A stretch of DNA of 64,000 bases from a phage. The stretch's first letter is position 1. Every line of letters starts with the position of its first letter. A program made the position numbers and the translations under genes. A model generated the notes under the pieces. That model was not told the origin of the DNA. It was given only the letters and a program-made list of their open reading frames with translations, and did not search any database. Of the stretch, positions 24,439 through 26,136 are shown piece by piece. The stretch lies in the NCBI GenBank assembly GCA_024683775.1, contig GCA_024683775.1_4106.1; one strand, given 5' to 3'.

Positions 24439-26136
24439 TTAATTTAAAAAATCGTATGGATTTGATTTATTAAATTGTGGATTATTACCATGTAATGTAT
24501 CATATAGATATATTTTACTTAATCCATCACTTGTTATTTGTACAGAATTAGTTGAATTATCATCAACTTTACATGAATATAGATATACTTTAGAAATTCC
24601 GGTTAAATCTGAACCTTGTCCAGAAGTAAAAGCAGTTTGACCTAAAGTGTTATCAGTTCTAGTACTTCCATACGAATGACAATTGATATTTACAGTACAT
24701 GTTTTGTCATGAACATCATGAACAACTCTACCATAAGTTGCATAATATGTACCATTAATTCGTAATCCTACAACACCATCATGTGCTGTAGAACCGTTGT
24801 TATTTGGTAAATTATCAAAACCACTATAACGACCAATACAATTTAATTCAACAAACCAGGGAATTATACCTAAAGAATAAAAATCAGCGTGATAATTAAA
24901 TGCATCTTGCATACCATATTCAGCGATACAATCTTGTAAAATACAATTACTACCTCGTCCATTAAATGAGTTTAATGATGCACTTAAACCAAAGGTAACA
25001 TTTTTGCAATACACATAACATTGTTTATTTGCAGATTGAGTTTCTGCGTGAAAACCACGAAAAGAGTTTGTAAAATGTATATTTTCCATATACAATTTTG
25101 TATTATCTTGAACTCTACCATTGGTCAACTCCATAATAACTTTTACATTATTATTTGGTGCAGTGGATGATGATAGGTGAAAATATGTTATATTTCCAGA
25201 TTTGAAAAATGTACCTGCTGTGGAGTCAACTAACGCAATAGATGTTGTTTGGTTTAAAATATAAGGATGACCATATTTGTCTATAATATTATAATCAGCT
25301 ATATTGAATACTAAATTTTGTGTTATTTGATATACATTATTATATCCTGTTGTTTTTACAAATGTGGGATTTTCTAATTCTCCAGATAAAATAGGTGTTC
25401 CATCATATCCTATAATATCAATAGTTCTATCAACTATTGAGGTTGACCATGTGTAATCTCTAGTGTAGGTTTGATTACCTTTAATCATGATGGTATTTGC
25501 CAATGGTGTTTGTGTAATTGCTTTGTTTATTCTCATAAAAGGTTTTTCAATTGTACCATCACCAGTAGTGTCGGAGCCATTTAATTTATCAACATAATAT
25601 GTTATTTGTGGTGATTGATTTTTGTGAATGGAAACATCATAATCGTAATTGTATGTTAATGTTGAATCTGAATTTATGATTTGAGTTATAGGAAATTTTT
25701 CTTCAATTCTGTGTAATTCATATGGAAGTTCAAGTTTATGTTTAGTTGCTCCAGTAACTAAATCAACAAAAGAATCTCCATTTGAATTAATAAAATTAAG
25801 TATTTGTTTATTTCTAACATTAGCAATGACAAAAAGACCTGAATTATATGTAGAAGATTGATGATAATGACCATCATCTGATACATAAATTGAAATCGTG
25901 TTATCATTTAATGTTAAAGTTTCCTGATTAATACGAATATTTTTACCATTTATAATAAATGAACCATCATTTAAAGTTAATACATTTTTGTTTATAGTAT
26001 ACGTAGGAAAATTTATAATTCTATTACCTAGTATATTATATAAATCAATATTTCTAACTGCACCATTATCATCAATATTTTGTTTAGAAATTGAAGCGGT
26101 TCCTGATATTTTTAAATCTGTTGTTATTTTATACAC
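24439..26136 (-). CDS. tailspike/depolymerase-like protein with right-handed beta-helix (pectate-lyase-like) features
   Basis: 565 aa; GTG start with SD aggaga; LNGSDTTGDGTIEKPFMRINKAI motif; N/T/S-rich repeats; the only long minus-strand ORF in the tRNA island. Confidence 0.6.
   Translation of the reverse strand: MYKITTDLKISGTASISKQNIDDNGAVRNIDLYNILGNRIINFPTYTINKNVLTLNDGSFIINGKNIRINQETLTLNDNTISIYVSDDGHYHQSSTYNSGLFVIANVRNKQILNFINSNGDSFVDLVTGATKHKLELPYELHRIEEKFPITQIINSDSTLTYNYDYDVSIHKNQSPQITYYVDKLNGSDTTGDGTIEKPFMRINKAITQTPLANTIMIKGNQTYTRDYTWSTSIVDRTIDIIGYDGTPILSGELENPTFVKTTGYNNVYQITQNLVFNIADYNIIDKYGHPYILNQTTSIALVDSTAGTFFKSGNITYFHLSSSTAPNNNVKVIMELTNGRVQDNTKLYMENIHFTNSFRGFHAETQSANKQCYVYCKNVTFGLSASLNSFNGRGSNCILQDCIAEYGMQDAFNYHADFYSLGIIPWFVELNCIGRYSGFDNLPNNNGSTAHDGVVGLRINGTYYATYGRVVHDVHDKTCTVNINCHSYGSTRTDNTLGQTAFTSGQGSDLTGISKVYLYSCKVDDNSTNSVQITSDGLSKIYLYDTLHGNNPQFNKSNPYDFLN

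What the first reader, a model, noticed from the sequence alone, without database searches (positions are those of the whole stretch)
24439..26136. Minus-strand beta-helix tailspike/depolymerase-like gene embedded between tRNA genes
This 565-aa ORF is one of only two minus-strand genes in 64 kb and lies between tRNA-like genes (24355-24428 and 26255-26338). It has its own SD and GTG start, is very AT-rich, and carries pectate-lyase-like beta-helix hallmarks (GSDTTGDGTIEKPF..., repetitive N/T/S/G-rich strands). A receptor-binding or polysaccharide-degrading protein in an early-gene tRNA island is unexpected and suggests horizontal acquisition, possibly mediated by the flanking tRNAs or HNH endonucleases, of a host-range or capsule/biofilm-degrading module.
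Basis: partly seen in the sequence, partly recalled or inferred. Interest (0 to 1): 0.65.

Follow-up and report, generated by a model that had tools for sequence, protein, structure and literature searches.

The report
Accessory tailspike cassette in phage tRNA array
A jumbo E. coli phage carries an extra sugar-cutting tailspike-type gene, with its own late promoter and a tail-fibre-like attachment tip, that was spliced into its tRNA gene cluster by recombination inside tRNA genes; it is a neat but fairly ordinary case of phages swapping host-recognition modules.

Summary

It has no Pfam anchor. Its first ~30 residues match, residue 1 to residue 1, the conserved N-terminus of the giant long tail fibres of these phages. 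A cATAAATA motif sits 54 nt upstream. That motif is avoided genome-wide and precedes capsid, portal-region and baseplate genes in phAPEC6, so it is probably the late promoter. dN/dS is 0.18.

The gene occurs in only 2 of 33 sequenced coliphage relatives, plus 8 assembly contigs. It lies in a ~2-kb cassette whose ends are chimeric pseudo-tRNAs. At the left, a tRNA-Asn 5' end joins a tRNA-Met body. At the right, a tRNA-Cys 5' part joins a tRNA-Ser(GCT) 3' end. Both crossovers fall in conserved tRNA arms. HNH genes nearby vary independently of the cassette.

Best reading: a late-expressed, probably virion-attached accessory depolymerase spike. Enzyme activity, substrate and virion presence are untested. 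It is a new member of a known kind.

The parts
24439..26136 (-). Tailspike-like ORF, 565 aa, GTG start
   Evidence: Intact in 11 copies, with dN/dS 0.18 against UE-S1.
26041..26136 (-). Codons 1-32: N-terminal peptide of the long-tail-fibre type (MYKITTDLKISG...)
   Evidence: Matches residue 1 to residue 1 the N-termini of phAPEC6 gp256 and JNE01 WOL22752 and WOL22751. The ungapped 12-aa BLOSUM62 score is 39-40, against a background of -3.8 +/- 6.8 with maximum 18. Ten fibre-family invariant positions within the first 27 residues are shared across four phage groups. pLDDT is below 50 in the monomer model.
25642..26022 (-). Residues ~39-165: beta-rich N-domain that precedes the helix in all close homologues
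24502..25605 (-). Residues ~178-545: right-handed parallel beta-helix. Family-invariant residues are G194, D411, H452 and R459; near-invariant ones include Y269, D281, Y349, E351, N414, Y415, E430, N447, S449, T450 and D474.
26142..26147 (-). Shine-Dalgarno sequence AGGAGA, 5 nt before the GTG
   Evidence: Annotated as an RBS in UE-S1.
26184..26190 (-). ATAAATA (cATAAATA), the putative late promoter core, 54 nt upstream of the GTG
   Evidence: It is one of only two minus-strand occurrences in 64 kb. The motif is depleted overall, with 12 found against 36.9 +/- 6.0 expected. It is conserved at -54 in all 11 copies. In phAPEC6, 14 of 15 occurrences lie 23-85 nt upstream of same-strand genes, most of them structural.
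24357..24430 (+). Left pseudo-tRNA: the 5' acceptor and D-arm of tRNA-Asn joined to the body and 3' end of a tRNA-Met(CAT) ('X')
   Evidence: The acceptor stem pairs at 2 of 7 positions here and in JNE01, and at 7 of 7 in UE-S1 and in G17 tRNA-Asn. X is orthologous to the tRNA-Met of CBB, GAP32, BF and fHe-Yen9-04. Rfam matches only positions 8-63.
26263..26339 (+). Right pseudo-tRNA: the 5' two-thirds of a tRNA-Cys(GCA) joined, within the shared T-arm, to the 3' end of tRNA-Ser(GCT)
   Evidence: Window 26234-26337 is 94% identical to the CBB promoter plus tRNA-Cys. From ~26311 onwards it is identical to the 3' end of tRNA-Ser(gct) plus spacer in E9.1 and WPEC5. It is not called as a tRNA.
26207..26236 (+). 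Sigma-70-like early promoter (TTGAAA-18-TGgTATAAT) facing away from the spike, towards the pseudo-tRNA-Cys and downstream tRNAs
   Evidence: 11 of 12 matches, extended -10. Its -10 region is part of the stretch homologous to CBB.
24364..26310 (.). Cassette absent from most Asteriusvirus tRNA arrays: X body, spike, divergent promoters, tRNA-Cys 5' part
   Evidence: Absent in G17, E9.1, WPEC5 and ~30 other records. It is 97-99.7% conserved among carriers, while flanks are 78-98%.
23545..24102 (+). HNH endonuclease 1 (NUMOD4 + HNH_3), variably present
26734..27276 (+). HNH endonuclease 2 (a different HNH family), variably present
24164..24352 (+). Intact tRNA-Ser(ACT) and the 90-nt tRNA-Met(CAT) of the G17-type array
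26494..26669 (+). Intact tRNA-Met (79 nt) and tRNA-Asn (85 nt) of the E9.1/WPEC5-type array

Best explanation
The ORF encodes a functional, late-expressed accessory receptor-binding protein of the tailspike/depolymerase kind. Its body (residues ~38-565) is an N-domain plus a right-handed beta-helix from a large uncurated family. That family's members sit at the C-terminus of tail spikes and fibres of many phages. The helix most likely binds and cleaves a surface polysaccharide of E. coli (O-antigen, capsule or exopolysaccharide), using a groove that contains the invariant D411, H452 and R459.

Its first ~30 residues are not of the spike family. They copy the conserved N-terminus of the T4 gp34-like long tail fibres of Rak2-like jumbo phages. 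The spike is therefore inferred to dock on the virion at the same kind of site as those fibres. Transcription is inferred to start from a T4-type late promoter (cATAAATA) 54 nt upstream, like the capsid and baseplate genes.

The gene travels in a ~2-kb cassette: tRNA-Met(X), spike on the opposite strand, late promoter, early promoter, tRNA-Cys. The cassette entered Asteriusvirus tRNA arrays by homologous crossovers in conserved tRNA arms. One crossover is tRNA-Cys x tRNA-Ser(GCT) in the T-arm and is shared by all copies. The other is tRNA-Asn x tRNA-Met(X) in the D-arm and is found in all copies except UE-S1. Both left broken pseudo-tRNAs at the ends.

Shown: the ORF, the fold, the homologies, the N-terminal match, the motif statistics, the junctions, the distribution and purifying selection. 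Inferred: enzymatic activity and substrate, virion attachment, late timing and any host-range benefit.

For: Homology: 51% identity to P0002, and 46.9% over 91% of the length to Henu1 gp43, the second RBP of a Przondovirus. Homologues carry PF09008, PF03906, PF18668 or PF10651 anchor domains. PHROGs hits include tail fibre and hydrolase families. The family has 6615 representatives at E<=1e-3. All family invariants are retained.

Functionality: 11 intact copies; 23 synonymous against 16 non-synonymous differences from UE-S1, omega 0.18.

N-terminus. The UE-S1 substitutions T5A, K9E and S11L hit only non-shared positions. phAPEC6 gp256 is an MS-verified virion tail fibre (PMC7247149).

Late promoter. 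phAPEC6 gp237c is annotated as a late sigma factor.

Cassette and junctions.
Against: There is no direct evidence of virion incorporation or enzyme activity. The N-terminal match is short (~30 aa, 32-41% identity). It lies in a region the monomer model leaves disordered, and the fibre shafts contain related 'DLxVSGT' repeats. No Pfam anchor domain is present. No T4gp10-like docking domain was found in six phAPEC6 tail proteins. No paralogue of the N-terminal 174 aa was found at E<=1 in the phage database.

The ATAAATA motif also occurs before some non-structural targets in the window, including HNH2 and tRNAs. No transcript data exist. The direction of events (gain by insertion, or ancestral presence with repeated loss) is not fully settled: UE-S1 keeps CBB-like synteny upstream of tRNA-X. 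The donor of the spike body is unknown, since no relative above 56% identity was found.
Confidence: 0.6

Rival explanations
1. It is a soluble late enzyme. On this reading the protein is made late but is not part of the virion. It is released at lysis to strip capsule, O-antigen or biofilm matrix, which would help progeny diffuse or stop them sticking to debris.
For: There is no recognisable anchor domain. The gene lies outside the tail-fibre cluster. No docking domain was found in tail proteins. The N-terminus is disordered in the model.
Against: The N-terminus matches the long-tail-fibre N-termini at the positions invariant across genera, and UE-S1 conserves exactly those positions. All close homologues are virion spikes or second RBPs.
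Confidence: 0.2
2. It is a binding-only fibre or adhesin. On this reading the beta-helix is a receptor-binding scaffold with no catalytic activity.
For: No catalytic mechanism could be assigned. There is no close solved homologue by sequence. Beta-helix adhesins (PfbA, pertactin) are among the fold matches.
Against: D411, H452 and R459 are strictly conserved, and a further run of polar residues on successive coils is near-invariant, across 103 representatives at 21-51% identity. That pattern is typical of an active-site groove. The top fold matches are enzymes.
Confidence: 0.12
3. It is a decaying hitchhiker, an inert remnant carried along with mobile HNH endonucleases and pseudo-tRNAs.
For: The flanking tRNAs are broken. 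The gene is rare in the genus. Its composition is extreme.
Against: The reading frame is intact in 11 copies and omega is 0.18. The SD and promoter motif are conserved. All family-invariant residues are kept. The cassette exists without adjacent HNH genes in L008.
Confidence: 0.03
4. The gene is ancestral and mostly lost. On this reading the X-spike-Cys arrangement was present in the common ancestor of Asteriusvirus and was deleted in most lineages by tRNA-tRNA recombination, rather than being recently acquired.
For: UE-S1 keeps the CBB-like synteny CBB_491/492 followed by tRNA-Met(X). A deletion between the tRNA-Asn 5' fragment and the downstream tRNA-Asn would regenerate a G17-type array.
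Against: The chimeric, non-functional tRNAs are in the carriers, whereas arrays lacking the cassette have intact tRNAs. The cassette is more conserved (97-99.7%) than its flanks (78-98%) between carriers. It sits in two different positions. CBB, GAP32 and their relatives have no close spike homologue.
Confidence: 0.2

Closest known systems
Second receptor-binding protein of KP32-like Klebsiella podophages (Przondovirus), e.g. Henu1 gp43 and KP32gp38, in the anchor-branch RBP system (Latka et al. 2019, PMC6872550)
   Same: Same protein family over residues ~53-564 (46.9% identity). Same size (~560 aa). Same architecture: no anchor domain, a short N-terminal peptide, an N-domain, then a beta-helix.
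   Different: The N-terminal peptide is not the Przondovirus one (MNRFTQPKG...) but the long-tail-fibre type of jumbo myophages. The gene lies in a tRNA array on the opposite strand with its own promoter, not next to the first RBP. No T4gp10-like partner was found.
Prophage and phage tailspikes with P22 head-binding (PF09008), T7 tail-fibre (PF03906) or TSP1/Gp66 (PF18668) N-terminal domains in E. coli, Klebsiella and Serratia
   Same: 47-50% identity across the N-domain and beta-helix. This is a classic case of one enzymatic module combined with different virion anchors.
   Different: Those proteins carry 110-320-aa anchor domains. This one carries only a ~30-aa fibre-type peptide.
T4 gp34-like 'long tail fiber proximal subunit' of Rak2-like jumbo phages (phAPEC6 gp256, GAP32_220, fHe-Yen9-04 g218c, Munch_252)
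   Same: They share an N-terminal signature: M1 Y2 I4 T6 D7 L8 G12 K18 A26 V27.
   Different: Those proteins are 1600-2100-aa fibres with repetitive shafts. Here the peptide is fused to a 530-aa spike body. DNA-level similarity of the 5' ends is low, so there has been no recent gene conversion.
Multi-depolymerase tail apparatus of jumbo Klebsiella phages (PhiK64-1, RaK2, PhiKp24)
   Same: These are also jumbo myophages carrying several beta-helix spikes, some encoded away from the main cluster. FBKp24 and relatives hold 29%-identical homologues. K64-1 S2-4 is a fold match.
   Different: Asteriusvirus has few spikes. This one is sporadic in the genus and sits in the tRNA island.
Free-standing homing endonucleases in the phage T4 tRNA gene region (SegB; from my own knowledge)
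   Same: Endonuclease genes are interspersed among phage tRNA genes in a recombination hot spot with presence/absence polymorphism.
   Different: Here the HNH genes vary independently of the cassette. No cleavage site or co-conversion tract was shown.

Membership tests
Right-handed parallel beta-helix tailspike/depolymerase (pectate-lyase-like fold) | Right-handed parallel beta-helix core | tested here: met
Right-handed parallel beta-helix tailspike/depolymerase (pectate-lyase-like fold) | Sequence homology to proteins known or annotated as virion tail spikes or fibres | tested here: met
   E-values of 1e-137 to 1e-167 to spikes with curated anchor domains. PHROG tail-fibre family match at 3e-44. 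Henu1 gp43 match.
Right-handed parallel beta-helix tailspike/depolymerase (pectate-lyase-like fold) | Polysaccharide-degrading activity with defined catalytic residues | not testable with these tools
   Only conservation is available: D411, H452 and R459 are invariant and E351, E430, D474 and Y415 are near-invariant. No mechanism was assigned.
Right-handed parallel beta-helix tailspike/depolymerase (pectate-lyase-like fold) | Homotrimeric assembly | not testable with these tools
   Only a monomer model is possible here.
Right-handed parallel beta-helix tailspike/depolymerase (pectate-lyase-like fold) | Presence in the virion | not testable with these tools
   The phAPEC6 proteome (PMC7247149) is from a phage that lacks the gene. 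The UE-S1 paper does not mention it.
Anchor-branch 'second RBP with conserved peptide' (Latka et al. 2019) | No anchor domain; a short N-terminal peptide conserved within the phage group | tested here: met
   No Pfam domain. The N-terminal ~30 aa is shared with the group's long fibres.
Anchor-branch 'second RBP with conserved peptide' (Latka et al. 2019) | Partner RBP with a T4gp10-like docking domain | tested here: inconclusive
   No Pfam hit in phAPEC6 gp244, 245, 247, 248, 253 or 256. A profile-profile or structural search was not run.
T4 gp34-like long tail fibre proximal subunit | Conserved N-terminal attachment region | tested here: met
   Ten invariant positions within the first 27 residues are shared across four phage groups. 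The N-terminus to N-terminus score is an outlier at z~6.
T4 gp34-like long tail fibre proximal subunit | Long repetitive fibrous shaft | tested here: not met
   Residues 38-565 are an N-domain plus a beta-helix. The protein is therefore not a member of this family and shares only its tip.
Functional tRNA genes (the two flanking elements) | Cloverleaf with a paired acceptor stem, detected by ARAGORN or Infernal | tested here: not met
   Left element: acceptor pairs at 2 of 7 positions, and the Rfam match is partial. Right element: not detected at E<=1; the 5' strand GCGGGGC and the 3' strand CTCACTG do not pair.
T4-type late promoter (TATAAATA) | Motif upstream of late structural genes, strand-matched and otherwise avoided | tested here: met
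   Window: 12 found against 36.9 expected, and the two minus-strand hits precede the two minus-strand genes. phAPEC6: 14 of 15 hits lie 23-85 nt upstream of same-strand starts, including the MCP and the baseplate wedge.
T4-type late promoter (TATAAATA) | Late transcription start dependent on a gp55-like sigma factor | not testable with these tools
   The only evidence is an annotation of a late sigma factor in phAPEC6.
Homing-endonuclease-driven cassette mobility | Constant physical linkage of the endonuclease gene and the mobilised DNA | tested here: not met
   Five arrangements exist. The HNH gene lies left, right, on both sides or on neither side of the cassette (L008).

The most novel reading that the evidence does not exclude
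The tRNA arrays of Rak2-like jumbo phages may serve as landing pads for self-contained host-range cassettes, each made of a late promoter, an SD, a fibre-type docking peptide and a depolymerase. On this reading the cassettes are exchanged between co-infecting phages by crossovers in the near-universal D- and T-arms of tRNA genes. The spike then occupies long-tail-fibre attachment sites, giving virions a mixed fibre/spike baseplate.
Probability: 0.3. Interest if true: 0.6.

Novelty: new member of a known kind. Interest (0 to 1): 0.42.

Why it matters
If the spike is on the virion, cassette-bearing Asteriusvirus phages (JNE01 on O157:H7, UE-S1 on uropathogenic E. coli) have an extra polysaccharide-specific receptor-binding activity that their relatives lack. 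That is relevant to host range and to the choice of phages for therapy or biocontrol.

The ~30-residue fibre-type tip would be a portable attachment tag, usable for engineering new spikes onto jumbo phages. The chimeric pseudo-tRNAs give an unusually clear molecular record of how a receptor-binding module was moved, namely by homologous crossovers in conserved tRNA arms.

The side result also has practical value. ATAAATA is a depleted, strand-specific signal before structural genes, which offers a working late-promoter definition for annotating this poorly understood phage group.

Tried and rejected
- Pfam, NCBIfam and PADLOC gave no family for the protein.
- IMG/VR held no relative above 50% identity and no donor-like locus.
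- The best partial hit, P0020 (56% identity), proved to be a prophage spike fragment beside a lysis cassette in a bacterial chromosome, not an AT-rich donor.
- A literature search for a capsule type or substrate of Henu1-type spikes gave nothing usable. No paper on JNE01 was found, and the UE-S1 paper does not discuss the gene.
- A database-wide tblastn of the N-terminal 174 aa found no paralogue. The fibre match appeared only in a local, small-database search.
- A Pfam search for T4gp10-like branching domains in six phAPEC6 tail proteins was negative.
- GC3 as proof of foreign origin was weakened, because late genes are themselves low in GC3.
- DNA alignment of the spike 5' end with the fibre 5' ends showed no recent gene conversion.
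- No sigma-70-like promoter lies on the minus strand directly upstream, and no intrinsic terminator lies downstream of the ORF.
- The idea that the HNH genes define the cassette ends was rejected.
- A weak YrlA-like Rfam hit (E 0.045, far below the gathering score) was dismissed as a tRNA-derived artefact.
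Full report
OBSERVATION. AGGAGA lies 5 nt upstream of the GTG. GC is 27.6% and GC3 is 11.1%, the lowest of 73 ORFs >=120 aa in the window. The only other genuine minus-strand gene in the 64 kb is 34214..35371, a phrog_10468 'virion structural protein'. A third minus-strand ORF overlaps a conserved plus-strand gene and has no family, so it is spurious.

ARAGORN and Rfam find intact tRNAs at 24164-24255 (Ser-ACT), 24263-24352 (Met, 90 nt), 26494-26572 (Met) and 26585-26669 (Asn). 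Both are nevertheless tRNA-derived, as shown under GENOMIC CONTEXT.

WHERE THE WINDOW COMES FROM. The region is 99.7% identical to Escherichia phage vB_EcoM_JNE01 and 96% identical to UE-S1. Both are Asteriusvirus, the 121Q/PBECO4-like jumbo myophages of ~350 kb. Of 33 Escherichia phage records that match the surrounding tRNA region, only these two contain the ORF. Both annotate it as a hypothetical protein. A near-identical protein, differing at two residues, is also encoded on eight assembly or read-set contigs.

WHAT THE PROTEIN IS. Pfam, NCBIfam and PADLOC give nothing. PHROGs gives an unknown-function family (2e-73), a tail-fibre family (3e-44) and a 'hydrolase' family (4e-41).

The closest relatives are 47-51% identical over ~91-95% of the length. 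They are tail spikes of Klebsiella, E. coli and Serratia prophages and phages. The alignment shows one common module, an N-domain plus a C-terminal body, preceded by different N-terminal parts. Pfam identifies those parts as P22 Head_binding, the T7 tail-fibre N-domain, Tail_spike_N (TSP1/Gp66) and, in a distant member, BppU_N.

The closest cultured-phage homologue is Henu1 gp43 (46.9% identity). It is the second of two adjacent RBP genes in a Przondovirus. In the model of Latka et al., this 'second RBP' has no anchor domain. It is thought to dock through a short conserved N-terminal peptide on a T4gp10-like domain of the first RBP (PMC6872550).

The family is large: 6615 50%-identity representatives at E<=1e-3, and 1822 at E<=1e-30. 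Across 103 diverse representatives, G194, D411, H452 and R459 are invariant. Y269, D281, Y349, E351, N414, Y415, E430, N447, S449, T450 and D474 are nearly so. This window's protein retains all of them. That pattern on successive coils suggests an active-site groove, but I could not assign a lyase or a hydrolase mechanism.

IS IT FUNCTIONAL? All 11 available copies are intact. Against UE-S1 there are 23 synonymous and 16 non-synonymous differences (dS 0.067, dN 0.012, omega 0.18). This indicates purifying selection.

A FIBRE-TYPE N-TERMINUS. A database-wide tblastn of the first 174 residues found no paralogue. A local search against 100 kb of the phAPEC6 structural region and 40 kb of the JNE01 tail-fibre region gave a different result. 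The top hits were the exact N-termini of the giant long-tail-fibre proteins.

- Spike: MYKITTDLKISGTASISKQNIDDNGAVRNIDL
- phAPEC6 gp256: MYSIKTDLDITGAGTVGKDLLVKGNAVFNNNL
- JNE01 has two such fibres, of 1628 and 2120 aa.

In an ungapped N-terminus to N-terminus comparison with 502 ORFs, these fibres score 39-40 over 12 residues (7-8 of 12 identical). The background is -3.8 +/- 6.8, with a maximum of 18.

Aligned with the fibre N-termini of GAP32 (Mimasvirus), fHe-Yen9-04 (Eneladusvirus) and Salmonella phage Munch, the spike shares every invariant position in the first 27 residues: M1 Y2 I4 T6 D7 L8 G12 K18 A26 V27. The three N-terminal substitutions in UE-S1 (T5A, K9E, S11L) fall only on non-shared positions.

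gp256 is an MS-verified 180-kDa virion tail fibre (PMC7247149), and its homologues are annotated as T4 gp34-like proximal subunits. The protein is therefore a chimera. Residues ~1-32 form a fibre-type tip, and residues ~38-565 form a spike body. I infer that the tip is the virion-docking element.

There are caveats. The match is short. The fibre shafts contain related repeats. The 5' ends are not similar at the DNA level, so this is not a recent conversion. No T4gp10-like domain was detected by Pfam in six tail proteins.

A LATE-PROMOTER MOTIF. The heptamer ATAAATA (compare the T4 late promoter TATAAATA, from established knowledge) occurs 12 times in the window, against 36.9 +/- 6.0 expected. 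Only two occurrences are on the minus strand. One lies 54 nt before the spike's GTG. The other lies 38 nt before the ATG of the other minus-strand gene, a virion structural protein.

In 50 kb of the phAPEC6 structural region the motif occurs 15 times, against ~32 expected. Fourteen of the 15 lie 23-85 nt upstream of a same-strand start codon. These genes include the major head protein (-52), the prohead protease, gp229c just downstream of the portal gene, the baseplate wedge, gp245 and gp253. phAPEC6 also annotates a late sigma factor.

The motif is at -54 in all 11 spike copies. No sigma-70-like promoter precedes the ORF on its strand. I infer late transcription. Some plus-strand occurrences in the window precede non-structural targets, so the motif alone does not prove timing.

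GENOMIC CONTEXT AND ORIGIN. In G17 the array is tRNA-Ser(ACT), tRNA-Met(90 nt), tRNA-Asn, contiguous. In E9.1 and WPEC5 it is tRNA-Ser(GCT), a 154-nt spacer, tRNA-Met(79 nt), tRNA-Asn. The window has the G17-type left part up to the first ~25 nt of tRNA-Asn. The cassette follows. From ~26311 the window then has the last ~30 nt of tRNA-Ser(GCT) and the E9.1-type remainder.

Left junction. The element at 24357-24430 has the tRNA-Asn 5' acceptor strand (GACTCTG) and the shared D-arm. It then continues as a different tRNA with a CAT anticodon, whose 3' acceptor strand is ACTGACC. Only 2 of 7 acceptor pairs form. In UE-S1 the same element has its own 5' strand, GGTCAGT, and pairs at 7 of 7, although its T-stem and anticodon loop are degenerate. 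This 'tRNA-X' is orthologous to the tRNA-Met of Pectobacterium phage CBB (87%) and of GAP32, BF, fHe-Yen9-04 and Erwinia phages. UE-S1 also keeps 217 nt of CBB_491/492-like sequence upstream of it.

Right junction. Window 26234-26337 is 94% identical over 104 nt to the promoter plus tRNA-Cys(GCA) of CBB. The switch to tRNA-Ser(GCT) sequence lies inside the T-arm stretch CGTGGGTTCGAATCCCAC, which is common to the CBB tRNA-Cys and the E9.1 tRNA-Ser(GCT). The resulting acceptor strands (GCGGGGC and CTCACTG) cannot pair. Further point changes in the window, JNE01 and UE-S1 copies fit decay.

Between the spike start and this pseudo-tRNA lies a strong plus-strand sigma-70-like promoter, TTGAAA-18-TGgTATAAT. 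The cassette therefore has divergent late and early promoters.

There are five arrangements of the locus, differing in HNH endonuclease occupancy:

- Window: HNH1 on the left and HNH2 on the right.
- L007, L009, L011: HNH1 on the left only.
- L008: no HNH gene on either side.
- JNE01, L006, L010: an HNH1-like gene on the right, with tRNA-Met(79 nt) and tRNA-Asn missing.
- UE-S1: the cassette lies upstream of HNH1 and tRNA-Ser(ACT).

The cassette is the best-conserved block. It is 99.7% identical to JNE01 and 97.2% to UE-S1, while the flanks are 78-98%.

I conclude that at least two crossovers inside tRNA genes placed and re-placed the cassette, and that the HNH genes are independent passengers of the same hot spot. 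An alternative, ancestral presence with repeated loss, is not excluded. UE-S1's CBB-like synteny favours it. The broken tRNAs in carriers, the cassette's higher conservation and its two positions disfavour it. The donor of the spike body is unknown: nothing above 56% identity was found, and CBB-group phages lack it.

The low GC3 is only partly informative, because late genes of these phages average 19.9%.

MECHANISM, COMMITTED. About 0.6: this is a late-made trimeric spike that docks through its fibre-type N-terminus on the virion and cleaves a host surface polysaccharide, adding a receptor specificity. About 0.2: the same enzyme, but soluble. About 0.1: binding only. About 0.03: an inert relic.

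COMPARISON WITH KNOWN SYSTEMS AND NOVELTY. This is a member of the well-known class of modular beta-helix receptor-binding proteins. Its body is closest to the 'second RBP' of KP32-like phages. Two features are less usual. The first is the long-tail-fibre-type tip on a short spike. The second is the gene's residence as an autonomous late cassette inside a tRNA array, with legible tRNA-arm crossovers. Neither is categorically new. I rate it a new member of a known kind, with moderate interest.

Noticed in passing
window, whole; phAPEC6 locus L059: ATAAATA is strongly depleted: 12 found against ~37 expected in the window, and 15 against ~32 in L059. It sits strand-matched 23-85 nt upstream of structural genes. 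It is therefore a candidate T4-type late promoter core for Asteriusvirus.
   Followed up: yes
window 34214-35371 (-), motif at 35403-35409: The only other minus-strand gene is a phrog_10468 'virion structural protein' with the same upstream ATAAATA. Its family also includes a 298-aa protein (WOL22753) inside the JNE01 tail-fibre cluster. It may therefore be another dispersed fibre-related late gene.
   Followed up: partly
window 24263-24352: This 90-nt 'tRNA-Met' (CAT anticodon) has a long extra arm and a Ser/Leu-like D-arm, so it looks like a type-II tRNA with a CAU anticodon. It is conserved in G17 and JNE01. Its charging identity is unclear (Met, Ile2 or other).
   Followed up: no
window 24164-24255: tRNA-Ser with the unusual anticodon ACT (A34).
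   Followed up: no
window 26585-26669 and 26734-27276; WPEC5 L004 5276-5360: The tRNA-Asn here is 85 nt, with a 12-nt insertion (tcagaaatgaca) in the variable region. The usual form is 73 nt. The long form occurs together with the downstream HNH2 gene in the window and in WPEC5. A similar 'aatgaca' string sits in the extra arm of the 90-nt tRNA-Met.
   Followed up: no
window 21846-22332: Three tandem 54-aa paralogues (MTHEEWM...) lie head to tail with 4-nt overlaps. Their copy number varies between related phages.
   Followed up: no
window 40146-41111: A phage-encoded sigma-70-family sigma factor (regions 2 and 3). It is distinct from the 'late sigma factor' annotated in phAPEC6.
   Followed up: no
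JNE01 locus L061 16835-18977: A colanic-acid-degradation-type spike (phrog_6117) appears split into overlapping 141-aa and 588-aa ORFs. This could be a frameshift, programmed or sequencing-related. The genus therefore already has one resident depolymerase-like spike in its tail cluster.
   Followed up: partly
JNE01 locus L001 6357-8500: JNE01, L006 and L010 lack tRNA-Met(79 nt) and tRNA-Asn downstream of the cassette; an HNH gene sits there instead. tRNA content therefore differs among very close relatives.
   Followed up: partly
window 24299-24415: A weak YrlA (Y RNA-like) Rfam hit (23.9 bits against a gathering score of 69, E 0.045) spans two adjacent tRNA-like elements. It is probably an artefact of tRNA-like modules.
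   Followed up: no
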